A stretch of 64,000 bases of DNA, taken from UHGV virus genome UHGV-0211740; one strand, given 5' to 3'. Below are positions 3,131-19,069 of this stretch, one piece after another; position 1 is the stretch's first letter; every line of letters starts with the position of its first letter. The stretch is from a virus. The notes under the pieces were generated by a model that saw nothing but the letters and a program-made list of their open reading frames with translations, was not told the origin of the DNA and searched no databases. The translations under genes and the position numbers were made by a program.

Positions 3131-3847
3131 ATGGCTACGCTTTATAGTGATATATTGATGGACCCGCAGACAGGCGATTTGGCAATAGACAACGGTCTTG
3201 AGTTGATAGATTCAAACCAAATAAGTCTGCGCCAGCGCCTGTGGATGAGGTTTAACACATGGAAGGGGAGCTGGTACTTTGACGAGTTGTTTGGCTTCCC
3301 TTATATGGACTTTCTTAGTAAGAAGGTCATGAAGACTGTTCTTGATAACAAGATTATGGAGGTGGCAAGACAGGAGCCTGATGTGCTAAACATCATAAAC
3401 TTCCAGTCTACCATGGATCGAAGATCGAGAACATACCAGGCGTTCTTTGAGGTTGTTACCAAGGAGAACGAAATTGTAAGACTGGCCTTCGTAGGTCTTG
3501 ATCAGTTCACTTACCCACAACCTGATGATGGAGCAACTTCTCTTTGTGATGATGAAGGCTGGATTAAGTGGGCTAATAAGCTGTACTACCTAATCAACTT
3601 CAGACTACCGAGGACAGGTGATGCCACATGGTGGAACCAGTATGCTGGCCCTGAGATGGAAAACCCGATCCCTGTAGGCTCTTTGTTGACTCAGGATAAA
3701 GATCTGCTGATGACTGAGGCAGAACAAACCATTAACCGTAATACCTGGACGCTTGCTCCAGATGAGCGCGAATACTCTGGCGTTATTGCTACCTCTAATG
3801 ATGAGGCTATTGCCAACCAGTCTGGTCGTGCTATTGATGTTAACTAA
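3131..3847 (+). CDS. baseplate wedge-like protein (gp25/GPW-like N-terminal motif)
   Basis: N-terminal LYSDI...QRLWMRFNTWKGSWYFDELFGFPY resembles the gp25/GPW signature as recalled; no search run. Confidence 0.4.
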   Translation: MATLYSDILMDPQTGDLAIDNGLELIDSNQISLRQRLWMRFNTWKGSWYFDELFGFPYMDFLSKKVMKTVLDNKIMEVARQEPDVLNIINFQSTMDRRSRTYQAFFEVVTKENEIVRLAFVGLDQFTYPQPDDGATSLCDDEGWIKWANKLYYLINFRLPRTGDATWWNQYAGPEMENPIPVGSLLTQDKDLLMTEAEQTINRNTWTLAPDEREYSGVIATSNDEAIANQSGRAIDVN

Positions 3848-7127: not shown

Positions 7128-7147
7128 AAGGGGGCTGTTTGCCCCCT
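7128..7147 (+). promoter_or_regulatory. intergenic GC hairpin (GGGGGC-loop-GCCCCC)
   Basis: Inverted repeat between stop of 4527 gene and RBS of 7160 gene; no T-tract. Confidence 0.35.
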
Positions 7148-7159
7148 TCAGGAGAAAGA

Positions 7160-9640
7160 ATGGCTGATATTAAAGTTGTCAGAATTGAATCTCTTCCTGC
7201 CACCACAGCAGTGGCAGAGGATGATTACCTGGTTGTTCAACAACCAGACCTGACCCGTCGTGTAAAAATTGGCGATGTTGTCCATGTGGATGGGACTGTT
7301 TCTCATGTGATCTCCTTTAAGGAAGGTGGTAAGTTAAATGGCCCAATGGATTTTGCCTACTTCGAAGAGGAAGACCTCTACCTGCGTTGGAAGGGCGAAT
7401 TCCCGCACACTGTTCCTGCACTGTCCTCACCATACTCTGATGGCGGTATTACTGATGCCACATGGATGGTATATACAGACCCTTCCTTAAGAGAGGAGCT
7501 GGAATCAACAATTGGCGCATCCATGATTATGACAGCCGAAGGGCAGTCTGTCCAGGATGTAATGGATGTTACAGTTAAGACAGCCAACGATGCTAAAGCG
7601 CTTGCACAGCGGGTGGATTTTGGCACTGTGCACACAGTGGGTGATGTTATTCACCTGGATAATTTTGTTGGCCCTGCAGTTATTGAAGAGGGAAGAACCA
7701 CCAACTATCCTTCTGAAGCCACTGGTGAAAAATTTCTGAACGGTGTGGTATCTCGTCGTGATACTACAACTGTTGATGGCATTTTCCGTGGCGCTACCTC
7801 TGGAGCTATGTACACCATTGCAGTAACCAACGGTGTCGCAACAACAAAAAGAATAGCCCTTCGTGATGAATTTAAACGCCTGGAGGCAAGCAACCCAACA
7901 AGAACAGTTATCCGTGCTGGAGATGATTTAAACACGGCAGGGTACTTGCAGCTTGATGCAACAGGCCGTTGGGGTATGTGGAACCAACAAACAGCTTCGT
8001 GGCAACCTCTTGCTATAGAGCAAGGCGGTACAGGGGCCAGAGATGCCGCAGGTGCACGTATTAACTTAGGGGCTTTCTATAAGCAACGTGCAGCCCTTGA
8101 GCCAAATTTCAATATCAATAACTTGACTGGTAATCAGGATGGTGTATACTACCAGCCGATGACTGCTTATGCAACCGAGGCAAATGGTTACCCTGCAGGT
8201 TCTGGTGCTGGTCACTTGATTGTTTGGCAGAACAATGCTAACGGCGGTACAGGTTGTCGTCAGGAATACTACCCGTTCTCTAACGTGGATGTTTGGTATC
8301 TGAGAACCTACCAAGCCAACACAAACCAGTGGACTGCATGGCAGCCGATGGTCAGACCTCGTAACGATGATACCTTTAGAGCGCACATCGGTCTTGGTTC
8401 CAGAAATTCCCCTACCTTCGGGCACCTTTACCTGTCTCAAAGCTCTGCGGATGTTAAGTCAGCATCAGGTATTGTTCACGGAGACAAATACAGTGCTGAC
8501 GGCGTTCTTGAGCATGGGTATAGAATTTACTCCGAGGTAAGAAACGACAATAAGGCTTGGTTGACAATCCACCTCCACAAAGGTGCAAAAGGGTCTGAAA
8601 CTCATAGATATTTAGGCTTCCGTGAAGACGGTGTGTTAGATTGTCCTAAATATATGCAGGTTGGTGATCTGAACGGTCAGCTGGCAAACTGGGGACTTGG
8701 AGAATGGATCCGCAGTTCAGGAGCAGAAAGAGGTTTCTGGGGATCCAAGAAAGCCGCCAAGATGGTCATCTGGGATGGCGGTATGGATGAGCAAGGTGAA
8801 GGCACTCTGGAATGGGGTGTTTATAACAACCGCAAGGCTAAATGGGAACCTTTGCCGATAGGTTGCGGTGGCACCAGTGCTAGGACTGTGGGAGATGCCC
8901 AGGCACAATTCAGAATCCCTCTTGCAGCAGGTGTCAGACCATATATAAACCTGCCTAGAACTGCAGCGATGCAGGATGGCAAGTATTATCCGATTATTGT
9001 CAGAACAGATCCTAACCATGCGCCAACAATCGGGACAGATTTAACCATCGTTACCAGATCTTCTTCTGGCAGCGATCCTATGAACTGTGCTACACTGCAG
9101 TGCCACTACAGAACTGGTGGCTGGACTGATCGTGGTGACTTCTTTACCGGGTCGATAAATTTCTACCAGAAGGAGAAGGCGATACTTGGGTGCGTTGCTC
9201 CAACAAGGGGTAAACAAGAGTATGTTGCGTTCTATGTAGAGGCACGTGCCTTCCCTGTAACAGTGTATGCCAGCGCTGACGTAATAGAGGTGTCAACAAG
9301 AGAGGCAGACTGGCAGGTTGGCAATGTAACAGACAACCAAGACGGTGTTAAATTCTGTGCACCTCTAGCATCTGCTGACTTGAATCTAGCAATCAAAGGT
9401 GACAATGTAACAAACACTCGACCTCTGGCTGAATTTAATGGTGTAACAGGTTTCTACACCAATCAGTGGATGTATCGTGGGTCTTCTGACAGATATTTCC
9501 TGTCCAATAAAACAGAGTTTGGCCTGACAGAGTTATGGTGCAACGGTCTTAACTACATCTGCCCAGGTAGTCAGACTACTCGAAAAGCACTGTTCTCTAA
9601 CGCAGGGTTCCAGGCTGATAGGAAAGAACAGAGGATCTGA
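7160..9640 (+). CDS. tail fibre/tailspike protein, N-terminal and central part
   Basis: ORF track 7139..9640; ATG at 7160 after AGGAGAAA; N-terminal anchor domain paralogous to 3857 gene; ends at TGA 9638-9640. Confidence 0.65.
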   Translation: MADIKVVRIESLPATTAVAEDDYLVVQQPDLTRRVKIGDVVHVDGTVSHVISFKEGGKLNGPMDFAYFEEEDLYLRWKGEFPHTVPALSSPYSDGGITDATWMVYTDPSLREELESTIGASMIMTAEGQSVQDVMDVTVKTANDAKALAQRVDFGTVHTVGDVIHLDNFVGPAVIEEGRTTNYPSEATGEKFLNGVVSRRDTTTVDGIFRGATSGAMYTIAVTNGVATTKRIALRDEFKRLEASNPTRTVIRAGDDLNTAGYLQLDATGRWGMWNQQTASWQPLAIEQGGTGARDAAGARINLGAFYKQRAALEPNFNINNLTGNQDGVYYQPMTAYATEANGYPAGSGAGHLIVWQNNANGGTGCRQEYYPFSNVDVWYLRTYQANTNQWTAWQPMVRPRNDDTFRAHIGLGSRNSPTFGHLYLSQSSADVKSASGIVHGDKYSADGVLEHGYRIYSEVRNDNKAWLTIHLHKGAKGSETHRYLGFREDGVLDCPKYMQVGDLNGQLANWGLGEWIRSSGAERGFWGSKKAAKMVIWDGGMDEQGEGTLEWGVYNNRKAKWEPLPIGCGGTSARTVGDAQAQFRIPLAAGVRPYINLPRTAAMQDGKYYPIIVRTDPNHAPTIGTDLTIVTRSSSGSDPMNCATLQCHYRTGGWTDRGDFFTGSINFYQKEKAILGCVAPTRGKQEYVAFYVEARAFPVTVYASADVIEVSTREADWQVGNVTDNQDGVKFCAPLASADLNLAIKGDNVTNTRPLAEFNGVTGFYTNQWMYRGSSDRYFLSNKTEFGLTELWCNGLNYICPGSQTTRKALFSNAGFQADRKEQRI

Positions 9641-10959
9641 TCAACAACACCTTTACCTCTAAATGTGGCAATGGTGCCGCGCTGAAAGGTCAGGCAGAGT
9701 TCAGATCTACTCCAGAGGCTGGTCAGGTTATTGTTCGTGATGTTGTAGGCACAGCCCATAGATTCTACAATTTCAACAAAGATGGCACTTTCTCAGCCCC
9801 TGGTGGTTTTGTATGCCACACGGGTGGTGACTGGAACAACCAGTTTGGGCCTAACAACCCGTCAAAAATAATGGCTGGTAATGTCAATGGGCCTGAGGGT
9901 TCGATGGTCGTTGGTGGATTGTCTGTGGCGTTTTCTGGAAACTATGCTTTCCAAATGGCTGGTCGCCTTGATCGATTATACACCAGGTCTATCGAGGGAG
10001 GTAACCATAGGGCGTGGAACAAAGTCATACAACACAGAGGCCAGGGTCTGGGGACAGACGATCTTAATAGCTATGATGGAACTCGTGACGGTATCTATCA
10101 TCAGGGTGCAAATTCTGACGCACTCACATCCCGTCATTATCCTGCTCCGTACGCTGGTACGCTGATTGTTTATCAGAACACTGCTAACCAGTTGACAGGG
10201 TGTGTGCAGGAGTATATAACCTATTTTGGTGACAGGTATACTCGTGCTGGCAACACGAATGGTGAAGATTTTGTTTGGGAAGAGTGGAGACACGATGCGG
10301 GTAAGGGAATCCAGTTAAGACCTAATTACACTTTTGGTGAAACCAGTAATCAACTGGAAATTCATGTCGGTGCTAATGGTCTTCCCTCCAACGCAGATGG
10401 CTTACCTAAGAATGATGCTGTACTCCATTATTGGGGTAACGGCAGCACAGGGGATCGTCCAAACGTGTTAGAGTTTAAGGTTCGTGACGAGTCTCAAGCA
10501 AATTGGGTATGGCATTGCGGTACCTTGCCAGATAACTCAAGATATCTTTCTGTAAATGGTGCTGTGAATTGCACATCTGTCAATCAGAGTTCTGACAGAG
10601 ACCTGAAAGATAACATATCTGTTATTCCTGATGCGTTAGAAGCTATCCGGAAGATGAAGGGTTATACTTACACTCTTAAAGAGAACGGTATGCCTTATGC
10701 AGGTGTTATAGCACAAGAGGTGCTTGAAGCGCTGCCGGAAGCAGTTAGCTCTTTCGTGCAAAGAAAGGAAATCCCAAACCCTGATCAAGATGGAACTCCT
10801 TTGATAACAGAGGAAAGATTCTACAGCGTGGATTACGCAGCCGTAACAGGCTTGCTTGTCCAGGTTTGCAGGGAACAGGATGATAAAATAACCGCCCTTG
10901 AGGAGCAGGTTAAAAAATTGACAGAGGTTGTTACTGGGTTGCAAGAGAAATTGAAGTAA
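9622..10959 (+). CDS. tail fibre C-terminal part with intramolecular chaperone (peptidase S74-like) domain; -1 frame relative to 7160..9640
   Basis: Frame open from 9622 with no start codon before ATG 9871 and no RBS there; C-terminus has SDRDLKDNI...GVIAQEV...coiled coil. Confidence 0.55.
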   Translation, partial: ERTEDLINNTFTSKCGNGAALKGQAEFRSTPEAGQVIVRDVVGTAHRFYNFNKDGTFSAPGGFVCHTGGDWNNQFGPNNPSKIMAGNVNGPEGSMVVGGLSVAFSGNYAFQMAGRLDRLYTRSIEGGNHRAWNKVIQHRGQGLGTDDLNSYDGTRDGIYHQGANSDALTSRHYPAPYAGTLIVYQNTANQLTGCVQEYITYFGDRYTRAGNTNGEDFVWEEWRHDAGKGIQLRPNYTFGETSNQLEIHVGANGLPSNADGLPKNDAVLHYWGNGSTGDRPNVLEFKVRDESQANWVWHCGTLPDNSRYLSVNGAVNCTSVNQSSDRDLKDNISVIPDALEAIRKMKGYTYTLKENGMPYAGVIAQEVLEALPEAVSSFVQRKEIPNPDQDGTPLITEERFYSVDYAAVTGLLVQVCREQDDKITALEEQVKKLTEVVTGLQEKLK

Positions 10960-11058: not shown

Positions 11059-11649
11059 ATGTTTTTATGGGAAAGGCCTAGATACCTTCCAGATATTAGA
11101 TTAGAGTTGCTGGCAGATATTGTCACGTTTAAAAGCCCGTTTACAGGTAAAACGCAAAAAGTAACCTATGCCACACCTAACTGGAAAGGCACTTTGACGG
11201 TTTCCAATATTAGCGAATCGCAGTTGCTTGAGCTCAAGAGTTTTGTTGACCAAGTTTACAAAGATGGGAATATCTTTCTTATCAAAACTTATGGTCATTC
11301 GGTGACAGCCAATGAGCCAATCGCTCTCGGACCGACTGGTAACGACGATTTTTTGAAGACGGTTGGTTGGGAGCCGAACAGGGATATAGCCAGAGCTGGG
11401 GATAAGATATCTGTTAATGATGAGTTGAAAGTGGTAACAGCTCCAGTACGTAGTGATGGTGTTGGGGCCGCTGTTATAAACATATCTCCAAGACTTAGGA
11501 AACCTATTGCAGCAGGGGATACTATGAAGATAATAACTCAATCCCCGAAGGGTAGGTTTCATATCAGAGATATTTATAAAATTAAGCAAAAAGTTGATGC
11601 TATGCAAAAAGGCGATAATATAGTTATCAATTTCTTTGAGGATTTCTAA
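11059..11649 (+). CDS. tail tip module protein (distal tail/minor tail-like, tentative)
   Basis: GGAGG RBS; first of three small genes before the J-like gene. Confidence 0.5.
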   Translation: MFLWERPRYLPDIRLELLADIVTFKSPFTGKTQKVTYATPNWKGTLTVSNISESQLLELKSFVDQVYKDGNIFLIKTYGHSVTANEPIALGPTGNDDFLKTVGWEPNRDIARAGDKISVNDELKVVTAPVRSDGVGAAVINISPRLRKPIAAGDTMKIITQSPKGRFHIRDIYKIKQKVDAMQKGDNIVINFFEDF

Positions 11650-11650
11650 G

Positions 11651-12202
11651 ATGATCAGAGCTCCATTAGATAATTTATTTATTGAAAATATAGAGCTTGA
11701 TGGCGTTGAGATCTTAATTGCTGCAAAACTGGAGCTACCAACAGGAACTGTCAGGGTGTGCTCAGGCACTGGTGTTGTAGTAATTGAAGGGCAACATTTT
11801 ATAGGTATAGGTGGATCAGCTACATTAACTGCTGTGTCGGAGAAAGATGCCACCAACTTCGGATCTGTGGTAGCAACATTGAACGGGTTTGACCCTAAAT
11901 ATGTTGGTGATTTGTTGAAGACTGAGTATTCAGGTTGTCGTGCCACGTTATACATTACAGCCATGGAGAATGGTCTGCCAGTAACCACTAATGGCTTGTT
12001 TGACGGACTTATAACAGATATGGCTATTCAGACAGGAGAGAATAGTGCTCTATCTATATCCATATCTTCAATCTTCAACAGCTGGCTAAGAGGGTTCCCT
12101 TATCGCTACACAGAAGAAAGTCATAGCTCAAGAAACGACAACGATAGATTTTTTAAATATGTGGATCAGGTGGCTAGTCGCCCGATCATTTGGGAGGTTT
12201 AA
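11651..12202 (+). CDS. tail tip module protein
   Basis: ORF track 11636..12202; ATG 11651 right after upstream stop with GAGGA RBS. Confidence 0.5.
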   Translation: MIRAPLDNLFIENIELDGVEILIAAKLELPTGTVRVCSGTGVVVIEGQHFIGIGGSATLTAVSEKDATNFGSVVATLNGFDPKYVGDLLKTEYSGCRATLYITAMENGLPVTTNGLFDGLITDMAIQTGENSALSISISSIFNSWLRGFPYRYTEESHSSRNDNDRFFKYVDQVASRPIIWEV

Positions 12203-12630
12203 TGAGTATCATACATCCTCGTTTAGTAGACTGGCAAGAAAGATTGTTGAAGGTGTTTGACGAAGAGTCAGCCGTTCCGTTCGAGTGGGGATTTCACGAT
12301 TGTTGCACTTTTGCAGCCAAGTGTGTTGATGCTCAGTATGGAACAGATATTCTCTCTAACTTCGAAGGCACGTACAAAACAGAACTGGAAAGTAAGAGAT
12401 GGTGTATGTTACATTTCAAAACCACCAACTTGCCTACCATTTTTGATCTCTTTATGACCAGACTGGATACTCCTAAACAGGTTCAGCGTGGAGATATTGT
12501 TATTTTCAAAGGTCTGAACGGACTTACCGCTGGCGTGTTTTGGAACAATCAGATTTGGTCAAAAGGTGATAAAGGGGTCTTTATGTTTGACATGAAAGAT
12601 TCTATCGTTGTTGATGTCTGGAGGTATTAA
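12202..12630 (+). CDS. putative tail-associated cysteine peptidase (NlpC/P60-like, tentative)
   Basis: ORF track 12190..12630; ATG 12202 with GGGAGG RBS; FHDCCTF motif; position like lambda gpK. Confidence 0.35.
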   Translation: MSIIHPRLVDWQERLLKVFDEESAVPFEWGFHDCCTFAAKCVDAQYGTDILSNFEGTYKTELESKRWCMLHFKTTNLPTIFDLFMTRLDTPKQVQRGDIVIFKGLNGLTAGVFWNNQIWSKGDKGVFMFDMKDSIVVDVWRY

Positions 12631-15600
12631 TGCCAATTGCAATGATTGATAACATCGTTGCTTCTGCAAGATCTTCGAGCTATGACTGGAACGCATCCAA
12701 GGCGGCTCTGGCTGACAGTCTGAACACTGTTACCACCAGAACTCTGGATAAGATTTTTGAGGGCAACAAATCTTACAGAGGCCAGCAAGATAGACAAAAG
12801 CTTCTCAGATCTTCAGCTGCACCTTGTTCTGTAGTGTATGGGAAGACACGCACATCGGGATTGCTTGCGTTTTTGGAGCAGGACAGGGACAGAACCCTCC
12901 ATTGTGCCATTGTTCTTGCCAATCACCCTCTGGAAGGTGTAGAAGACATACTTATCGACGGTAATCCTATTTCTTCATATGGAGATTTGGTATCGTGGGA
13001 GCTGCATAACGACAGAAAAACATCTGATCCTTTCATGGGGACACACTGCCCTTCGTGGTCACCAGACATGATAGGTAGAGGGATCAGTTGGCTGCGTGCC
13101 AGCTTCAAATTTGACCCTAACAAGTTTCCTTTTGGGTTGCCAAACGTTACACTCGTCAAGGTTGGTAAAAAATGCTATGATCCTCGCATCAGCAAAGAGG
13201 TGTATACCAATAACGCGGCCTTGGTGATTCTGGACTATTTAAGAACATACCTTAAATGTCCTGACGAAACCATCAACTGGGAGTCCTTCAAGGAAGCTGC
13301 CAACATATGTGACGAGGCTGTAAGAAACGCTGACGGAACCAGTGAGCGTCGTTACACCATCAATGGTGAGTTCGACATGGATGAGGCTCCAGCAAGCATC
13401 ATGGCAGAAATGCTGAAAGCCTGTGGTGCAGATCTTAGCTATGTGGCTGGTAAGTATGGATTGCTGGTTGGGGCCTATTATGGACCAGCAACAATGACAC
13501 TGGGTGAGGATTGTGTTTGTGGTGAAGTCAAGATCTATCCAGAAGCTTCCTTTGACAAAAGATCCAACACAATAACTGGTAGATTCACCAGTCCTGCCAA
13601 AGGATACTCTGAAACAGATTTCCCATCAGTGTTTGTTCCAGAGTGGATAGAGAAGGATGGGGAAAGAAAGATAATCGATATAGATTATCGTTTTGTCACC
13701 AGTCCTTATCAGGCCCAGCGTGTTTCCGCGATATTCTTAAGACGTGCCAGAGCTGGTAGGATTATTGAAGTCACGTGCAATATGCGTGGTTTTAAATTTA
13801 AGCCTGGACGCTACGTCACAATGAACCTCCCAAGTATTGGCATAGTAGGCCAAGAGATGAGAGTTCTTGAGTGGGAGTTCACTAAAAAGGGCGGTGTTAA
13901 GGTAAAACTTCGTCAAGATGCGAAAGAGTGGAATGATGCCACAGGTCAACTTCCTGACTCTGGTGATGTAGATATTCCTGTGTCCCCATCTGGTGTGGCT
14001 CAACCGCAAAACTTCAGATTCTCTGTTCTTCAAGCTGGAGAAGTAACTCATGGTGTTTTAGCTTGGGACAACGTTGGGACTTACGCTCAAAACATTGTGC
14101 AGGTCAGGAAAAATGGAGAGATTGTCTGGACAGCACAGACAGTTGAGCAGTTTGTCCGTGTTGAAGGTCTGACTAAAGGGTCTTACACAGCCACTGTTGT
14201 TGCAACATCTTATAAAGGCGGTGTATCTCCAGAAGCGTACTGTGAGTTTAACATTCAGGCACCTGAGGCTCCGGTTTCTGTAGAAGTTAAGCAGGGATAT
14301 TTTGCTATCACCTTAATTCCGCACAGCAGGGATTTAGCAAGTGTCAGCACCCAGTATGACTTTTGGACATCCGGCATGACAAGGTTGCCTGACACTAGTG
14401 ATGCAACCGTCACTTCAAAAGCTACTCGCATGGGTGTTGGTTCAACTTGGACATCTGAAGGTCTGCAGAACGATAAGGTTTATTATTGGTATATTCGAAC
14501 CACAAACGCTTTTGGTAGTTCTCAGTTTGTAGAGTGTGCTGCACGCTGCTATACCTCTATTGAAGATTTGATGCCTCAGATAGATGCTGAATTTAAAAAG
14601 ACAGAGACTTATAAAGAGTTGATGAGCACTTTAGATTCTTCTATCGAAGAGGTTGAAAATCGGGTCACAGAACTTAACAAGTACATGGATGGTAGAGTTG
14701 ATGAAGCTTTTGATCACATGGAAAGTGAGTTCTCTAGAGTAGACAAGCTGTATGCTCAGCTGGGAGATAGGGTAGGGGTATTCATCCAAGAAACCAGTGA
14801 AAACTTCCAAGATGTTAATGGAACGCTTACCGCTCTCGACCAGAAACTGGTAGCCACTCAGAACAAGTTTACAGATGATCTCTCTAAAGAAAGTGGCAAG
14901 CTAACCTCTCTGATCCAGACCACTAACAAAGCTACAACTGATCTTCTTAATAAGAAAACAGAAGCTTTGGACGAGAAGATTGTTTCGACCAGGGGCGAGT
15001 TGGAAGATGCTTTAGCACAGGAAAGCGCTGAGCTGAACTCTCTGATTGTATCTACCAATAAAACGACTACAGATCTCCTTAATCAGAAAACCGAGGCACT
15101 GGACAATAAGCTGACGGCAACGAAAGGTGAGTTGACCAACAACTTGAATAATGAGAGTGCTAAACTGTCGTCGTTGATTGAGACAACCAACAAATCCACC
15201 ACTGATCTTCTTAACAAGAAAACAGATGCGTTGGATGAAAAACTGGTTGCTGCACAGGGTGAGCTAACTGAGCAGATTGGCGATGTTGAAAAAGGTTATC
15301 TGGCTGGAGATAAGAGCCTAGAAGGTAAGTTGAATACTCAGAGATCTGAGTTGGATGCAAGCATTCTGAGTACTAATCAGGCTACTGTGGATTTGCTGAA
15401 TAGAACTTCTCAGACTCTTGACCAGAAGATTAGCCAGACTAACGCCACGGTATCTAAAAACTACACCACTCTAGATGGCAAGATCAACACCACCAAATCT
15501 GATCTCAATACGTTGATCTCTACCACCAACAAGGCCACAACGGACCTGCTGAATCAGAAAACTGCAGCCTTATCTGAACAATTAACCTCTGCTAAAGGGC

Positions 15601-16775
15601 AGATTACAACCAACACCAATAATATTACGGGGTTGGATAATAAGCTTACCCAAGCTAAGAAAGATTTGTCTGCAAATATTTCTGAAACTAATCAGGCCAC
15701 TGTTGACCTGATTAACGGAACAGCGTCAGCTATTCGTCAAGAACTTGCTGTTGCTAAGCAGGAGATCATTGATGATGTTGGAGATGTGTCCGAGATCAGG
15801 GCTGCAGTAGCTACAACATCTAAGGCTGTAACCGACTTAGAGGGCAAAGTAAACGCTCAGTGGGGCACAAAAATACAGGTAGACTCCGCAGGGAATAAAT
15901 ATGTTGCAGGTATCCAGTTGGGGATGGAAGGGTCTGGGGGCCAAGTTCAATCCTACTTCATGGTTAGTGCAAACAATTTTGCGGTATATAACCCTGGGAA
16001 TGGAACAGCAACCCTTGCCTTTGCAATCAAGAACAACCAGGCGTTCTTGAAAGATGCCTTCATAGAGAATGGCACAATCTCTTCAGCCAAGATTGCACAA
16101 GAGATTTCGTCAAACAACTACGATGGCAACGGGTACCACAAATACGGCTGGTATATTAACAAGAATGGGCACGCCCAGTTTATGGATGTGTGGGTGAAAG
16201 GCAACATCAACGCTAGTGCAGGTAACTTCACAGGAGCAGTTAACGCCACCAGCGGTACCTTCCGTGGCGATGTTTATGCCAACAACGGTAGTTTTAGAGG
16301 TACCATAGACGCAACAGGTGGTACTTTCCGTGGGCGTGTAGAAGCTTCTGTTATCCGTGCCAACCAGTTTGAAGGTGCAATTGTTGCACACAGGACCTAT
16401 GGTGACTGTCCTCCGGTATATAACTCCCAGCAGAGGGTTTGCCGCTGGAAATGGAGATATGTGGATAACGTGCAAGGCCAAGGTAAGAACGTAACATTCT
16501 TCTTTAAACTGAACGGTACGCTCGCCAGCTCCCAGCTTAACGTTTGGATAGCCGGACATCAAATCCTTGCAGGTAAGAAGTACGGAAACGACAACAACGG
16601 CATGTGTGCGGTAGGGATAACGGGTCTAGGTGAACAGACCATAGACATTATCGTTGAAATTTACACACCATGGTCAACGTCAAGCGTGACAGGAGTTACA
16701 ATATCTTGTCCTACTGTTGTGGTGAGCCGATCCAACTCAAGTTTCCAAGGCCCTTGGAACGAGTCTCACGACTAA
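12630..16775 (+). CDS. host specificity / central tail fibre protein (lambda gpJ-like)
   Basis: 1381 aa; N-terminal region with gpJ-like motifs (VILDYLRTYL); six ~44-aa coiled-coil repeats; C-terminal GxFRG repeats. Confidence 0.6.
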   Translation: MPIAMIDNIVASARSSSYDWNASKAALADSLNTVTTRTLDKIFEGNKSYRGQQDRQKLLRSSAAPCSVVYGKTRTSGLLAFLEQDRDRTLHCAIVLANHPLEGVEDILIDGNPISSYGDLVSWELHNDRKTSDPFMGTHCPSWSPDMIGRGISWLRASFKFDPNKFPFGLPNVTLVKVGKKCYDPRISKEVYTNNAALVILDYLRTYLKCPDETINWESFKEAANICDEAVRNADGTSERRYTINGEFDMDEAPASIMAEMLKACGADLSYVAGKYGLLVGAYYGPATMTLGEDCVCGEVKIYPEASFDKRSNTITGRFTSPAKGYSETDFPSVFVPEWIEKDGERKIIDIDYRFVTSPYQAQRVSAIFLRRARAGRIIEVTCNMRGFKFKPGRYVTMNLPSIGIVGQEMRVLEWEFTKKGGVKVKLRQDAKEWNDATGQLPDSGDVDIPVSPSGVAQPQNFRFSVLQAGEVTHGVLAWDNVGTYAQNIVQVRKNGEIVWTAQTVEQFVRVEGLTKGSYTATVVATSYKGGVSPEAYCEFNIQAPEAPVSVEVKQGYFAITLIPHSRDLASVSTQYDFWTSGMTRLPDTSDATVTSKATRMGVGSTWTSEGLQNDKVYYWYIRTTNAFGSSQFVECAARCYTSIEDLMPQIDAEFKKTETYKELMSTLDSSIEEVENRVTELNKYMDGRVDEAFDHMESEFSRVDKLYAQLGDRVGVFIQETSENFQDVNGTLTALDQKLVATQNKFTDDLSKESGKLTSLIQTTNKATTDLLNKKTEALDEKIVSTRGELEDALAQESAELNSLIVSTNKTTTDLLNQKTEALDNKLTATKGELTNNLNNESAKLSSLIETTNKSTTDLLNKKTDALDEKLVAAQGELTEQIGDVEKGYLAGDKSLEGKLNTQRSELDASILSTNQATVDLLNRTSQTLDQKISQTNATVSKNYTTLDGKINTTKSDLNTLISTTNKATTDLLNQKTAALSEQLTSAKGQITTNTNNITGLDNKLTQAKKDLSANISETNQATVDLINGTASAIRQELAVAKQEIIDDVGDVSEIRAAVATTSKAVTDLEGKVNAQWGTKIQVDSAGNKYVAGIQLGMEGSGGQVQSYFMVSANNFAVYNPGNGTATLAFAIKNNQAFLKDAFIENGTISSAKIAQEISSNNYDGNGYHKYGWYINKNGHAQFMDVWVKGNINASAGNFTGAVNATSGTFRGDVYANNGSFRGTIDATGGTFRGRVEASVIRANQFEGAIVAHRTYGDCPPVYNSQQRVCRWKWRYVDNVQGQGKNVTFFFKLNGTLASSQLNVWIAGHQILAGKKYGNDNNGMCAVGITGLGEQTIDIIVEIYTPWSTSSVTGVTISCPTVVVSRSNSSFQGPWNESHD
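14900..15770 (+). repeat. in-frame tandem repeats (~132 bp units, degenerate later) encoding coiled-coil segment
   Basis: Repeated L(N/S)SLIxTTNKATTDLLNxKTxALDxKL units visible in DNA and protein. Confidence 0.7.
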
Positions 16776-16880: not shown

Positions 16881-18371
16881 GTGGCTAAGTATGGATTGAC
16901 AGAGGCTGGTTTCGTTATACCAACCCTAAATGACCTGATCGTTGAAACTAAGCAAAGCCTGATCCGTGCTTTTGGCGAAAACTTCAACGTACAGAGTAAC
17001 TCAGTTGCAGATAAGCTGACCACTATCTTCAACGAGCGAGAGTATCAACTTATTCTTATGGCAGCGTCTGTGTATGCATCGCAGACACTGTATGGGGCAG
17101 AGGGTATTTACCTTGATGAACTTCTTGGAAGACAAGGTATTTACCGAAGAGGTCGTTCTAAATCATCAGGTACCTGCCAGTTGACAATTAACACAACTGT
17201 GCCGTACAATATGATTTATGATTCCAAAACTTACACGCTGGACAGTGGCAACTTTGTCCTCAGTAATGACGTGCAGGTAGCTGGGAATCTGATTGCTCAC
17301 AGAATAAACGCTCCAGACCTAAGAATTGGGAAATACAATTTTCAAATTACCAACCAGACAGATGGAAGTATCAAAACAAAAAGTCTGGTTTTAACAGATA
17401 AGGCCCTGGACTCTTCTGATCTTCCCAGCTTTTACGGGGAGATTAAGCAATTTATTGTCGATAATACAACCCTGTTGAACGACGATTTGATCCAGATCGA
17501 TATGTTGACAGGTACGTTGTGGATAGGTTACAATTCTAACCTTGATCAAGTTGGGCTTAATAGTAGGGTGGATTTCAGAGTATCTCCGATTGTAGGGGAA
17601 AGAACTATCACCCTGGATGTTATCGCTAACGAGGCTGGTGAGCTGTCAAGAGAGGCAGAAACTGTAACAACAATGTCACCTACCCCTAGTGGGTTTATTA
17701 AACTCACCAACCGAGAAAGATTCAATGAGGGCAGGGATGTTGAGAAAGACTCTGAGTATCGCTTAAGAGCTACCAGCACTAAACAGCTGACATCTAAAGC
17801 TACTCGCCCTGCAATCCTTAGCGCCGTAAGCGAGGTGAAAGGTGTTGAGAAAGTGAGAGTGTTCTCTAACAACACCGATAAAACGGATGCGAAAGGTATA
17901 CCACCTTACAAATTTCAAGTGGTGGTGTTTGGTGGTACAACAGAGGATATCTGTCAAGCATTGTATCAAACCATAGCTTGCACAAACAGAACTTATGGTA
18001 ATATCTTCTACGATATTAATACATCAGACGGTCAAACTGAAAGGATTTATTATTCTAAGGCAAACACTTACCGTCTGGATATGAGGATTACCTACTCAGG
18101 TGCTGCGCTTTCCACGACTGAAAAAGATGCTATTACAGAGGCCCTTCTGCAGGTTGTTAATGGACTAGATGTTGCCGATACGTTGTATAATATCCAATTG
18201 GTTGGTGCTGCATCTGCGGCTGTTTCTATAGGCAGATTTAACAGACTGGTAATTCAAGTTAAACCTGTAGGGGCTTCTGATGAAGCTTACACCACAAACG
18301 ACATTGTTGCAAACATGACCGAGGTGTTTGACCTCGACGAAAGTAATATAACTTTCCAACAAACTATTTAA
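16881..18371 (+). CDS. structural protein (possibly baseplate-associated), function unknown
   Basis: GTG start with GGAGG RBS; 496 aa; no recognised motif. Confidence 0.5.
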   Translation: MAKYGLTEAGFVIPTLNDLIVETKQSLIRAFGENFNVQSNSVADKLTTIFNEREYQLILMAASVYASQTLYGAEGIYLDELLGRQGIYRRGRSKSSGTCQLTINTTVPYNMIYDSKTYTLDSGNFVLSNDVQVAGNLIAHRINAPDLRIGKYNFQITNQTDGSIKTKSLVLTDKALDSSDLPSFYGEIKQFIVDNTTLLNDDLIQIDMLTGTLWIGYNSNLDQVGLNSRVDFRVSPIVGERTITLDVIANEAGELSREAETVTTMSPTPSGFIKLTNRERFNEGRDVEKDSEYRLRATSTKQLTSKATRPAILSAVSEVKGVEKVRVFSNNTDKTDAKGIPPYKFQVVVFGGTTEDICQALYQTIACTNRTYGNIFYDINTSDGQTERIYYSKANTYRLDMRITYSGAALSTTEKDAITEALLQVVNGLDVADTLYNIQLVGAASAAVSIGRFNRLVIQVKPVGASDEAYTTNDIVANMTEVFDLDESNITFQQTI

Positions 18372-18382
18372 GGCGGCGAGAT

Positions 18383-19069
18383 ATGGCAGAGATTAAGTCG
18401 GATGTCAACCACATCCACACTCTGCCAGATTTTGTTCAGGGAGGTCTTGACTACCTGCCTGGAGATTTTCTGGCTGAGAAGGTTAATTTGGTCACATTCT
18501 TAACCGTGTACCTTAAAAGGTTGGAGGATGTTGATAAGATGCTGGTAGGTTTGGCTGAAGGAAGATTGCTTAACAATGCCAGCGGAAGATACCTTGACGA
18601 GGTAGGAAATCAGCTTGGCATTCTTAGGAACGGGCTTTCAGATGCCGATTTTCGTGCCACACTAATTATTCAGCAGGCAGCATCCTCAAGGGGTGGGACT
18701 AGAGAAGATGTCATCTCCACTTTGCGACAATTGTTCGGAAGAAATAATTTCGATACGTGGAAAGGTGACAACTTCAGGTTTGACATAAATATTAGAAAAA
18801 CTTGCTTTGATATACTGCAGTCTATCGATCAGATCTTAGATATGCTACCGCTGCCTTGCCATTTGCGGCTTACAGAGTCGCAGGGGCAAGCTTTTGGCTT
18901 TGAAGGGGACTCAACAGCTCTCGGTTTCGGATCAGTGTGGGAAGAAAACCAGTTCGGAGTTGGTGGATTGGCTACTTTATTGTACGTTCCTGACGTAAGA
19001 CCTGATTGGGACACCACAACCATTTATTGTGAAAGTATTACAGTGAACGCAACTAGACAGGAGGGTTAA
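18383..19069 (+). CDS. hypothetical structural protein
   Basis: ORF track; operon context. Confidence 0.5.
   Translation: MAEIKSDVNHIHTLPDFVQGGLDYLPGDFLAEKVNLVTFLTVYLKRLEDVDKMLVGLAEGRLLNNASGRYLDEVGNQLGILRNGLSDADFRATLIIQQAASSRGGTREDVISTLRQLFGRNNFDTWKGDNFRFDINIRKTCFDILQSIDQILDMLPLPCHLRLTESQGQAFGFEGDSTALGFGSVWEENQFGVGGLATLLYVPDVRPDWDTTTIYCESITVNATRQEG

What the first reader, a model, noticed from the sequence alone, without database searches (positions are those of the whole stretch)
14900..15770. In-frame ~132-bp tandem repeats form a coiled-coil shaft in the J-like protein
About six repeat units each begin with L(N/S)SLIxTTNKATTDLLNxKTxALDxKL. The first three are near-identical in length and the later ones are degenerate. 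Repeats like this can expand or contract by recombination and change fibre length.
Basis: seen in the sequence. Interest (0 to 1): 0.45.

Follow-up and report, generated by a model that had tools for sequence, protein, structure and literature searches.

The report
Repeat-built helical rod in phage fibre
The repeats are real: a 44-amino-acid unit, copied several times, builds the long alpha-helical rod of a lambda-J-type tail fibre in an rV5-like E. coli phage, and related phages carry rods shorter by whole units, so this is a tidy but ordinary case of fibre-length variation.

Summary
Observation confirmed. The ORF at 12630-16775 (1381 aa) is a J-type tail fibre of a Vequintavirus (rV5-like myovirus). 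It has three exact in-frame 132-nt (44-aa) tandem units at 14901-15296. Three degenerate copies follow at 15351, 15504 and 15666, and an ancestral terminal copy abuts the tail-tip domain. The signal is strong in protein (lag-44 identity z = 10.4) but weak in DNA: 57-61% identity, third codon positions randomised, and Tandem Repeats Finder reports nothing.

The units lie in a 428-aa stretch that AlphaFold2 predicts as almost continuous helix. Hydrophobic periodicity is 3.64-3.67 residues, an 11-residue (hendecad) pattern, so one unit is four hendecads.

Relatives fall into three fixed rod classes: 428, 326 and 246 aa. The rV5 class lacks exactly two units (88 aa). Siphovirus J proteins have a 110-aa heptad rod with none of these extra units. 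No intermediate copy numbers occur among about 135 sequences, and the tandem units share at most 14 identical bases. The variation is therefore old and moves as an allelic cassette: the window matches phage Aya at 97-100% on both sides, but inside ~14650-15330 it is only 63-74% like Aya and ~91% like BP9.

Best reading: a static trimeric coiled-coil spacer that sets the fibre's reach. A fold-switching coil of the F-pyocin type is not excluded but is poorly supported.

The parts
12630..16775 (+). Gene for the 1381-aa J-type tail fibre protein (homologue of rV5 gp37)
   Evidence: Single ORF. PHROG 31 'central tail fiber J', E 5e-160. 91-95% DNA identity to Vequintavirus genomes. rV5 gp37 was detected in virions by mass spectrometry (PMC3606486).
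13359..14045 (+). Hub-type domain (aa 244-472) shared with siphovirus baseplate hub proteins
   Evidence: phmmer hit to T5 pb3 residues 527-752, E 3e-4. Collinear from aa 48 with Queuovirinae central fibre J at 51% identity.
14106..14585 (+). Two Ig/fibronectin-III-like domains of J (aa 493-652)
   Evidence: Pfam Ig_J_second 105.8 bits, above its cut-off. Ig_J 24.8 bits, below its cut-off of 29. Aligns to lambda J residues 666-849.
14568..15851 (+). Alpha-helical rod, aa 647-1074 (428 aa, about 63 nm if fully extended)
   Evidence: AlphaFold2 single-sequence model: helices aa 661-891, 896-1051 and 1054-1078, pLDDT 50-74. Hydrophobic periodicity 3.64, power 233-243 against a shuffle maximum of 53 +/- 11. 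One proline in the stretch.
14715..14756 (+). 14-aa segment (aa 696-709, two heptads) absent from rV5-type alleles
   Evidence: Protein alignments.
14901..15032 (+). Tandem unit 1 (aa 758-801), extra relative to rV5-type fibres
   Evidence: No orthologue in rV5; 28/44 identical to unit 2.
15033..15164 (+). Tandem unit 2 (aa 802-845), extra relative to rV5-type fibres
15165..15296 (+). Tandem unit 3 (aa 846-889), orthologue of the single rV5 unit at aa 744
   Evidence: 36/44 identical to rV5 unit 744-787.
15303..15314 (+). Predicted short helix break or possible hinge (aa 892-895, within GYLAGDKSLEG)
   Evidence: Only sizeable interruption of the predicted helix. Glycines at 889, 893 and 899.
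15351..15482 (+). Degenerate unit 4 (aa 908-951, STNQATVDLLN type)
   Evidence: 43/44 identical to rV5 unit 806; absent from the isim class.
15504..15635 (+). Unit 5 (aa 959-1002, TTNKATTDLLN type)
   Evidence: 32/44 identical to rV5 unit 857.
15666..15797 (+). Degenerate unit 6 (aa 1013-1056, ETNQATVDLIN type)
   Evidence: 39/44 identical to rV5 unit 911.
15813..15845 (+). Terminal ancestral copy of the motif, TTSKAVTDLEG (aa 1062-1072), joining the rod to the tail-tip domain
   Evidence: Conserved in siphovirus J (SHIN8 ETSKAVVDLEG) and in the F2-pyocin fibre (TTSQAVTSLDG). Fits the SxSxxMxxLxS strand motif 5/5.
14650..15330 (+). Mosaic cassette: the 'long' rod allele set in an otherwise Aya-like gene (approximate limits)
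   Evidence: Identity to Aya is 97-100% in most 150-nt bins outside the cassette (lower, 87-96%, in the last ~850 nt of the gene, where all relatives diverge). Inside it is 63-74% with 306 nt of gaps. Identity to BP9 is about 91% throughout. 13 phage records carry this allele and 59 carry the short one.
15804..16226 (+). Phage_Tail_Tip (DUF1983) domain, aa 1059-1199
   Evidence: Pfam 133.6 bits. Aligns to lambda J 844-990 and F2-pyocin fibre 1081-1184.
16227..16772 (+). Distal glycine-rich repeats and C-terminal domain; presumed receptor-binding end (inferred, not tested)
   Evidence: Position as in lambda J. Partial alignment of aa 1180-1217 to lambda J 942-990. Not analysed further.

Best explanation
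The region encodes the central rod of a trimeric, lambda-J-type tail fibre in an rV5-like myovirus.

**What the rod is.**
- It is a long parallel alpha-helical coiled coil built mostly on an 11-residue (hendecad) hydrophobic pattern.
- One 44-aa repeat unit is four hendecads, which is 12 helical turns. Adding or removing whole units therefore lengthens or shortens the rod by about 6.5 nm each. It does this without disturbing the core register or the relative rotation of the two ends.
- The rod separates the proximal attachment part (hub-type domain plus two Ig/FN3 domains) from the distal beta-structured tip and C-terminal domain. Its length sets how far the tip reaches from the baseplate.

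**How it arose.**
- The rod grew in the Vequintavirus lineage by serial duplication of a motif. That motif's ancestral copy still sits next to the tail-tip domain.
- This phage carries the longest known allele, with three tandem units where rV5 has one.
- The duplications are old. The length classes now persist as diverged alleles swapped between phages by recombination in the conserved flanks.

**Shown:** the repeats, helix prediction, periodicity, length classes, mosaicism and J homology.

**Inferred:** the trimeric parallel packing (from homologous solved structures), the straight extended geometry, and the functional role of reach.
For: - **Repeat statistics:** (z = 10.4 at lag 44; spacing 132 nt; invariant core positions I5, T8, T12 and L15 fall at hendecad positions e, h, a and d).
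- **Helix:**
- **Periodicity:** 3.67 in the three tandem units, with power 121-135 against a shuffle maximum of 48 +/- 12 and about zero power at 3.5. The whole rod gives 3.63-3.64 in all Vequintavirus classes, against 3.51-3.54 in siphovirus J rods.
- **Pfam Apolipoprotein hit:** aa 723-883, a family built of 11/22-mer helical repeats, E 3.7e-7 but below its cut-off.
- **Trimer:** lambda J, A8 gpJ and the F2-pyocin fibre each occur as three chains per entry.
- **Position of the insertion:** lambda J goes from FN3 (to about 849) to the tail-tip domain (from 844) with almost no rod. Here the FN3 alignment ends at aa 683 (Pfam Ig_J_second ends at aa 652), while the tail-tip domain starts at aa 1059.
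- **Length classes:** 1381, 1279 and 1199 aa with 6, 4 and 3 units. Queuovirinae J has none.
- **Purifying selection on the units:** codon position 2 is 82-84% identical and position 3 is 32-34%.
- **Mosaic cassette:**
- **Literature:** a Vequintavirinae fibre with a central-fibre-type N-terminus, a large coiled coil and a C-terminal beta-helix has been modelled as a trimer (RBPseg class TC5, PMC12143355).
Against: - There is no experimental structure of this protein or of any Vequintavirus J-like fibre.
- The AlphaFold2 model is a single-sequence monomer with only moderate confidence (mean pLDDT 54; 62-74 in the rod).
- In a perfectly 44-periodic block, Fourier power can only fall on harmonics of 44. 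The 3.67 value there is therefore partly a consequence of the repeat length. The rows-of-11 layout is the independent support.
- Several core positions are polar (T8, T12, K at some d/h positions), which is unusual for a stable coiled coil.
- The position of this fibre on a contractile-tail baseplate that has its own hub is unknown, so the 'reach' function is inference.
Confidence: 0.78

Rival explanations
1. The rod, or at least its distal part, is a metastable fold-switching coiled coil like that of the F-type pyocin central fibre. On receptor contact it would convert to a beta-prism and release stored energy. The repeats would then tune the size of the switching segment.
For: - The F7 pyocin central fibre converts a 163-residue trimeric coiled coil, lying just upstream of its C-terminal beta-prism, into a beta-prism. 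Similar switches are predicted for 21 of 24 siphophage central fibres, with an 11-residue strand motif SxSxxMxxLxS (PMC12874032).
- Window aa 974-1180 aligns to F2-pyocin fibre residues 986-1184, E 4e-18.
- The terminal motif TTSKAVTDLEG matches the strand motif 5/5 and equals pyocin TTSQAVTSLDG. The repeated motif TTNKATTDLLN is its paralogue.
- The rod has an 11-residue periodicity.
Against: - The motif is not enriched in the rod: 5 full matches against 2.7 +/- 1.6 in shuffles, with 256 of 2000 shuffles reaching 5. Density is 1.2 per 100 aa, against 3.8 in the pyocin fragment.
- The conserved repeat motif scores only 2/5. It carries invariant Asn at two 'small' positions. In the pyocin, Gln at such positions blocks switching.
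- The hydrophobic helical moment is strong here but weak in the pyocin fragment.
- The phage has a contractile tail with its own hub, so it does not need this energy source.
- The authors note that lambda and T5 do not show the switch.
Confidence: 0.1
2. The helical region is not an extended shaft. It would be a folded-back antiparallel helical bundle (apolipoprotein- or spectrin-like), so the repeats would change bundle thickness or stability rather than fibre length.
For: - Weak Pfam hits to Apolipoprotein and Spectrin_7.
- A predicted helix break at aa 892-895 and another at 1052-1053.
- The monomer model cannot distinguish the two geometries (pTM 0.27).
Against: - The three predicted helices are 231, 156 and 25 residues long. 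These unequal lengths cannot form a regular three-pass bundle, and an even number of passes would put the distal tip back at the proximal end.
- Homologous J fibres are parallel trimers.
- The related Vequintavirinae fibre is described as elongated with large coiled-coil domains.
- The rV5 paper reports thin fibres of about 70 nm. That is roughly what an extended 326-aa rod plus end domains would give (my estimate).
Confidence: 0.07
3. The repeats are an active recombination or slippage hot spot (a contingency locus) that generates fibre-length variants at high frequency within phage populations.
For: - Relatives differ by exactly two units.
- The repeats are in frame, so unit changes are tolerated.
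Against: - The tandem units are 57-61% identical in DNA, and their longest shared exact words are 9, 14 and 8 nt.
- TRF finds no array.
- Among 119 proteins of the 1279-aa class and 15 of the long class there is no intermediate copy number. The two shorter long-class members are C-terminal truncations that keep all units.
- The long and short alleles also differ by 26-37% in the sequence flanking the indel, so they are old alleles and not recent slippage products.
Confidence: 0.04
4. The periodicity is a by-product of biased amino-acid composition in a low-complexity region and not a true repeat.
For: - TRF is negative.
- The region is rich in T, N, K, L, D and E.
Against: - Composition-preserving shuffles never reach the observed lag-44 identity (0 of 2000, z = 10.4).
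- The copies are in register over 115 nt.
- A profile of the unit finds only this protein family among 1.84 billion representative proteins.
Confidence: 0.01

Closest known systems
Bacteriophage lambda tip attachment protein J (gpJ; PDB 8IYK, 8XCG and others)
   Same: Both have the second Ig/FN3 domain, a helical connector, the Phage_Tail_Tip domain, distal beta-structure and a C-terminal domain. The domain order is the same, and lambda J is trimeric in solved structures.
   Different: - Lambda J has almost no rod: FN3 and the tail-tip domain are adjacent in the alignment. Here about 420 aa of helix are inserted.
- Lambda J closes a non-contractile tail tube, whereas this phage is a myovirus with a separate hub.
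- The N-terminal ~490 aa are shorter and only weakly similar.
Central tail fibre J of Queuovirinae siphoviruses (Seuratvirus SHIN8, Nonagvirus JenK1; PDB 23gd 'J-like tail tip protein gp24')
   Same: - Closest non-Vequintavirus relatives: collinear from aa 48, at 43-51% identity.
- The three upstream genes are shared: Dit phrog_1302, phrog_2048 and DUF6950, at 39-45% identity.
- The terminal motif ETSKAVVDLEG is conserved.
   Different: Their rod is 110 aa, has heptad periodicity (3.51-3.54), and contains none of the 44-aa units.
rV5 gp37 and other Vequintavirus J-like fibres (1279-aa and 1199-aa classes)
   Same: Orthologous gene in the same locus, 89-95% DNA identity outside the cassette. 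gp37 is a virion protein.
   Different: rV5 type: one unit instead of three tandem units, and a 14-aa deletion, giving a rod of 326 aa. isim/FFH2 type: also lacks unit 4, giving a rod of 246 aa.
F-type pyocin central fibre protein (F2/F7; PDB 25vf; PMC12874032)
   Same: Significant sequence similarity over the distal rod plus the tail-tip domain. Both share the motif next to the beta-prism seed and an 11-residue sequence pattern.
   Different: - The pyocin coil is Ala-rich, carries the SxSxxMxxLxS motif densely, and switches fold.
- The window's repeats break that motif (Asn at 'small' positions) and show a strong helical hydrophobic moment.
Hendecad (11/3) coiled coils and 11/22-mer helical repeat proteins (Thermotoga Omp-alpha, tetrabrachion stalk, apolipoproteins A-I/A-IV/E; stalks of trimeric autotransporter adhesins with variable repeat number)
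   Same: - 11-residue hydrophobic periodicity with 22- and 44-residue super-repeats.
- Some GenBank records label the rV5 protein 'Omp-alpha'.
- Pfam gives a sub-threshold Apolipoprotein match.
- Rod length is set by the number of units (family properties are from my own knowledge).
   Different: There is no evidence of common descent. The similarity is in periodicity and composition only, and the Pfam score (30.5) is far below the family cut-off (90).

Membership tests
Lambda-J-type central tail fibre / tip attachment protein | Phage_Tail_Tip (DUF1983, PF09327) domain | tested here: met
   133.6 bits against a cut-off of 22, aa 1059-1199, full profile coverage. Aligns to lambda J 844-990.
Lambda-J-type central tail fibre / tip attachment protein | J-type Ig/FN3 domains upstream of the fibre part | tested here: met
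   Ig_J_second 105.8 bits against a cut-off of 27. The first Ig_J domain scores only 24.8 against 29, below its cut-off.
Lambda-J-type central tail fibre / tip attachment protein | N-terminal hub domains homologous to siphovirus baseplate hub / Tal proteins | tested here: inconclusive
   - aa 244-472 match T5 pb3 at E 3e-4.
- Pfam Phage-tail_3 scores only 14.3 bits, below its cut-off.
- The protein is strongly collinear with Queuovirinae J from aa 48.
- The PHROG 31 alignment starts at profile position 466, so the first hub domains of lambda J are not matched.
Lambda-J-type central tail fibre / tip attachment protein | Encoded after a Dit / L-like / K- or I-like gene set | tested here: met
   Genes 11059-11649 (phrog_1302, distal tail protein), 11636-12202 (phrog_2048) and 12190-12630 (DUF6950). 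They are 39-45% identical to those of SHIN8, in the same order.
Lambda-J-type central tail fibre / tip attachment protein | Forms the tip of a non-contractile tail | tested here: not met
   - The genome is a Vequintavirus, a contractile-tailed group.
- The window has its own myovirus baseplate hub (1437-2441, phrog_196), a gp25-like protein (3131-3847) and wedge proteins (16881-19069).
- The protein is therefore J-like by descent, but its place in the virion is not that of lambda J.
Alpha-helical coiled coil (hendecad type) | Long uninterrupted alpha-helix | tested here: met
   AlphaFold2: helices of 231, 156 and 25 residues, pLDDT 50-74. One Pro in 431 aa.
Alpha-helical coiled coil (hendecad type) | Hydrophobic periodicity of 3.5-3.67 residues well above chance | tested here: met
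   Period 3.64 for the whole rod and 3.67 for the tandem units. 0 of 300 shuffles reach the observed power.
Alpha-helical coiled coil (hendecad type) | Knobs-into-holes packing in a parallel oligomer | not testable with these tools
   Only monomer prediction is available. The trimer is inferred from solved homologues with three chains per entry.
Recombinogenic DNA tandem repeat | Head-to-tail DNA copies similar enough to be detected and to recombine | tested here: not met
   TRF finds nothing. Units are 57-61% identical, and the longest shared word is 14 nt.
Recombinogenic DNA tandem repeat | Copy number differs between relatives by whole units | tested here: met
   88-aa (two-unit) difference between the 1381-aa and 1279-aa classes.
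Recombinogenic DNA tandem repeat | Copy-number polymorphism among close relatives | tested here: not met
   No intermediate numbers among 119 + 15 proteins.
Fold-switching central-fibre coiled coil (F-pyocin type) | Sequence similarity to the C-terminal ~400 aa of the pyocin central fibre protein | tested here: met
   aa 974-1180 align to the F2-pyocin fibre residues 986-1184, E 4e-18.
Fold-switching central-fibre coiled coil (F-pyocin type) | Recurrent SxSxxMxxLxS strand motif through the coil | tested here: not met
   5 matches in 431 aa against 2.7 +/- 1.6 expected. The conserved repeat motif fits 2 of 5 positions. Only the last ~45 aa carry it.
Fold-switching central-fibre coiled coil (F-pyocin type) | Both coil and beta-prism conformations obtainable (prediction or experiment) | not testable with these tools
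   This needs trimer prediction with deep and shallow alignments. Only a monomer, single-sequence run was possible, and it gave helix.

The most novel reading that the evidence does not exclude
[quoted passage not shown] Two readings remain open.

- **(a) Switch retained.** The Vequintavirus rod still switches, at least in its distal ~100 aa. This would be the first such spring on a contractile-tailed phage.
- **(b) Switch disabled.** The invariant Asn residues at the 'small' motif positions have frozen a former spring into a static spacer. That would show how a metastable element is domesticated after a siphovirus tail-tip module moves onto a myovirus baseplate.
Probability: 0.12. Interest if true: 0.7.

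Novelty: new member of a known kind. Interest (0 to 1): 0.3.

Why it matters
Fibre rods set how far a receptor-binding tip reaches through capsule and O-antigen. A rod built from register-neutral 44-aa units is a natural, modular way to tune that reach. The three discrete natural lengths (about 36, 48 and 63 nm by calculation) offer ready-made parts for engineering fibre length in a therapeutically relevant phage group. They also provide a simple test of whether length affects host range. The link to the recently described fold-switching coil of F-pyocin fibres, and the presence of a complete siphovirus tail-tip module in a myovirus, are the points a specialist might want to follow up. In itself, the finding is an expected kind of feature in a known protein family.

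Tried and rejected
- **Tandem Repeats Finder** at its lowest threshold found nothing. This is a sensitivity limit and not evidence of absence.
- **The search for homologous proteins with the rod alone** returned only 4 hits, because low-complexity words saturated the candidate list.
- **The search for homologous proteins with the full protein** listed 120 proteins, all but one of the near-identical 1279-aa class. This was useful as a census but useless as a deep alignment. A deep-versus-shallow AlphaFold test of fold switching therefore could not be set up, and the second structure job was not spent.
- **The AlphaFold2 single-sequence model** is poor for the beta-rich tail-tip part (pLDDT below 50), so no fold search was run on it.
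- **The phi92 cryo-EM paper** (PMC13450770) was read in the hope of locating a J-like fibre on a related baseplate. It does not identify one.
- **The BASEL and receptor-prediction papers** say nothing specific about this protein.
- **A literature search** for hendecad coiled coils in phage fibres found nothing directly relevant.
- **Exact breakpoints of the 88-aa indel** cannot be placed, because the gap can slide within the repeat and the alleles are 26-37% diverged.

Full report
**What is there**

The finding lies inside one long ORF, 12630-16775 on the + strand, of 1381 aa.

- Pfam finds the Phage_Tail_Tip domain (aa 1059-1199, 133.6 bits) and the second Ig-like domain of protein J (aa 547-652, 105.8 bits). 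PHROGs gives 'central tail fiber J' at E 5e-160.
- The DNA is 91-95% identical to rV5-like E. coli myoviruses of the genus Vequintavirus.
- The orthologue in rV5 is gp37 (1279 aa), which was detected in virions by mass spectrometry (PMC3606486).
- The 'J-like protein' label is therefore correct.

**The repeats**

- Tandem Repeats Finder reports nothing, even at minimum score 30.
- The seed-and-extend repeat finder reports three in-register 115-nt copies at 14885, 15017 and 15149. They are spaced exactly 132 nt and are 65-72% identical. Shorter copies of the core lie at 15372, 15514 and 15687.
- In protein, the units begin at aa 758, 802, 846, 908, 959 and 1013. The first three are exactly 44 aa; the later spacings are 62, 51 and 54 aa.
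- Identity at lag 44 across the rod is 0.226, against 0.081 +/- 0.014 for composition-preserving shuffles (z = 10.4, 0 of 2000). Secondary signals appear at lag 22 (z = 5.7) and lag 88 (z = 6.3).
- The three tandem units share 25-28 of 44 residues but only 75-81 of 132 bases. Identity is 82-84% at second codon positions and 32-34% at third positions.
- So the duplication is old and has been kept by selection on the protein. This is also why the DNA-level tool missed it.
- A seventh, terminal copy of the core motif (TTSKAVTDLEG, aa 1062-1072) joins the rod to the tail-tip domain. It is conserved in siphovirus J proteins and in the F2-pyocin fibre.

**Helical rod**

- A single-sequence AlphaFold2 run on aa 631-1257 predicts helix for aa 661-891, 896-1051 and 1054-1078, at pLDDT 50-74. 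The beta-rich tip is not modelled with confidence.
- Hydrophobic periodicity over aa 645-1075 peaks at 3.64 residues. Its power is 233, against a shuffle maximum of 53 +/- 11.
- In the three tandem units the peak is at 3.67 (11/3), and power at 3.5 is essentially zero.
- Written in rows of 11, the hydrophobic residues fall in columns 1, 4, 5 and 8, which are hendecad positions a, d, e and h. The invariant unit residues I5, T8, T12 and L15 are exactly such positions.
- One unit is therefore four hendecads, or twelve helical turns. This also explains the lag-22 signal and the sub-threshold Pfam match to apolipoprotein 11/22-mer repeats.
- Homologous fibres (lambda J, A8 gpJ, F2-pyocin fibre) are present as three chains per entry in solved structures. 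The rod is therefore most likely a parallel trimer; this step is inferred.
- A Vequintavirinae fibre with this architecture has already been modelled as an elongated trimer with a large coiled coil (RBPseg class TC5, PMC12143355).

**Where the rod sits relative to lambda J**

In lambda J, the alignment runs from the FN3 domains (to residue ~849) almost straight into the tail-tip domain (from 844). In the window protein, the same two blocks are aa 497-683 and 1059-1217. About 420 aa of helix have thus been inserted at the short connector of lambda J.

**Copy number in relatives**

| Protein class | Length (aa) | Rod (aa) | Units | Notes |
|---|---|---|---|---|
| Window, BP9, ECML-10 and others | 1381 | 428 | 6 | 13 phage records |
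| rV5, EduardKellenberger, Aya and others | 1279 | 326 | 4 | ~59 phage records |
| isim, FFH2 and others | 1199 | 246 | 3 | |
| Queuovirinae siphovirus J (nearest outgroup) | 1042-1077 | 110 | 0 | Periodicity 3.51-3.54 |

(Sources.)

- The 1381-aa and 1279-aa classes differ by exactly 88 aa (two units) plus a separate 14-aa (two-heptad) indel.
- By unit-to-unit similarity, the rV5 units are orthologues of window units 3, 4, 5 and 6 (36, 43, 32 and 39 of 44 identical). Units 1 and 2 are the extra ones.
- Two allele classes and the outgroup have no tandem array at this site. The triplication is therefore probably derived.
- A profile of the unit, searched against 1.84 billion representative proteins, finds only the Vequintavirus J-like family at significant level. 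The expansion is lineage-specific.

**How the variation is maintained**

- The tandem units share exact DNA words of only 9, 14 and 8 nt.
- Among 119 proteins of the 1279-aa class and 15 of the long class there is no intermediate copy number. The two shorter long-class members are C-terminal truncations that retain all units.
- The window gene is 97-100% identical to phage Aya in most 150-nt bins outside ~14650-15330, falling to 87-96% in the last ~850 nt of the gene, where all relatives diverge. Inside that interval it is only 63-74% identical, with 306 nt of gaps. Identity to BP9 is a uniform ~91% throughout.
- The long rod segment is therefore an old, diverged allele that has been recombined into an Aya-like backbone.
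But the present mechanism is cassette exchange and not recombination between units.

**Mechanism proposed**

The rod is a static spacer that sets the distance between the proximal hub/FN3 part and the distal tip.

- Because 44 aa is a whole number of hendecads and of helical turns, unit gain or loss keeps the core register and the azimuth of the tip.
- At 0.148 nm per residue, the three classes give about 63, 48 and 36 nm. This is a calculation, not a measurement.
[quoted passage not shown] That is about what a 48-nm rod plus end domains would give, but the identification is my inference.

**The fold-switch alternative**

A 2026 preprint shows that in the F7 pyocin a 163-residue coiled coil of the J-like central fibre converts to a beta-prism on receptor binding. 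The strand motif is 11 residues long, SxSxxMxxLxS, and similar switches are predicted in many siphophage fibres (PMC12874032).

- The distal rod and tail-tip domain of the window protein align to the F2-pyocin fibre (E 4e-18), and the terminal motif fits the pattern 5/5.
- However, the pattern is not enriched in the rod: 5 matches against 2.7 +/- 1.6 expected.
- The conserved repeat motif fits only 2 of 5 positions. It carries invariant Asn at two 'small' positions, and in the pyocin Gln at such positions blocks switching.
- The helical hydrophobic moment is much stronger here than in the pyocin fragment.
- The phage also has a contractile tail with its own hub.
- I rate this reading at about 10%. 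It could not be tested directly, because only monomer prediction was available.

**Comparison and novelty**

- By descent the protein is a member of the J-type central-fibre family. It does not meet the family's positional criterion, which is the tip of a non-contractile tail.
- The coiled-coil rod of Vequintavirus J-like fibres is known from annotation and modelling. A 97%-identical protein is already in public data.
- Not described, as far as the searched literature shows, are: the 44-aa hendecad unit, its paralogy with the tip-proximal motif, the three discrete length alleles, and the mosaic origin of this phage's allele.
- This makes the finding a well-characterised new member of a known kind, of modest interest.

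Noticed in passing
window 11059-16775: A complete siphovirus-type tail-tip module sits inside the baseplate and fibre locus of a contractile-tailed phage that has its own hub (1437-2441) and wedge genes (16881-19069). The module is a distal tail protein (phrog_1302), a phrog_2048 tail protein, a DUF6950 protein and J. It has the same order as in Queuovirinae siphoviruses and is 39-51% identical to them. Where this module sits on the virion is unknown.
   Followed up: partly
window ~9617 (gene 7139-10959): A one-base deletion (a missing C) relative to phages Aya and BP9 splits the rV5-gp41-type lateral tail fibre gene. In relatives it is a single ORF of about 1270-1280 aa. Here it becomes an 833-aa ORF (7139-9640) plus a downstream open frame ending at 10959. 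This could be a sequencing error or a real frameshift.
   Followed up: partly
public records matching window 12630-16775: Eighteen GenBank records named 'Campylobacter phage' (MG0656xx series; host given as Campylobacter jejuni for 16) are 89-91% identical to this E. coli Vequintavirus gene over its whole length, and their genome sizes are mostly Vequintavirus-like. The naming or host assignment looks doubtful.
   Followed up: no
window 14901-15797 (unit columns 9 and 17): Two asparagines (N9, N17) and one aspartate (D14) are invariant in all six units, although by the hendecad register they are not core positions. The core itself contains invariant threonines (T8, T12). This suggests a conserved polar inter-helix network whose role is unexplained.
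   Followed up: no
window 14568-14900 versus 14901-15851: The proximal part of the rod (aa 645-735) has periodicity 3.58, and the siphovirus rods have 3.51-3.54. The repeat-built part has 3.62-3.67. The Vequintavirus expansion thus changed the coiled-coil type from heptad-like to hendecad-like.
   Followed up: partly
window 16230-16775: The 3' end of the gene (C-terminal domain) drops to 82-91% identity with all relatives compared, including Aya at 87-96%. This suggests a second variable segment, presumably the receptor-binding end.
   Followed up: no
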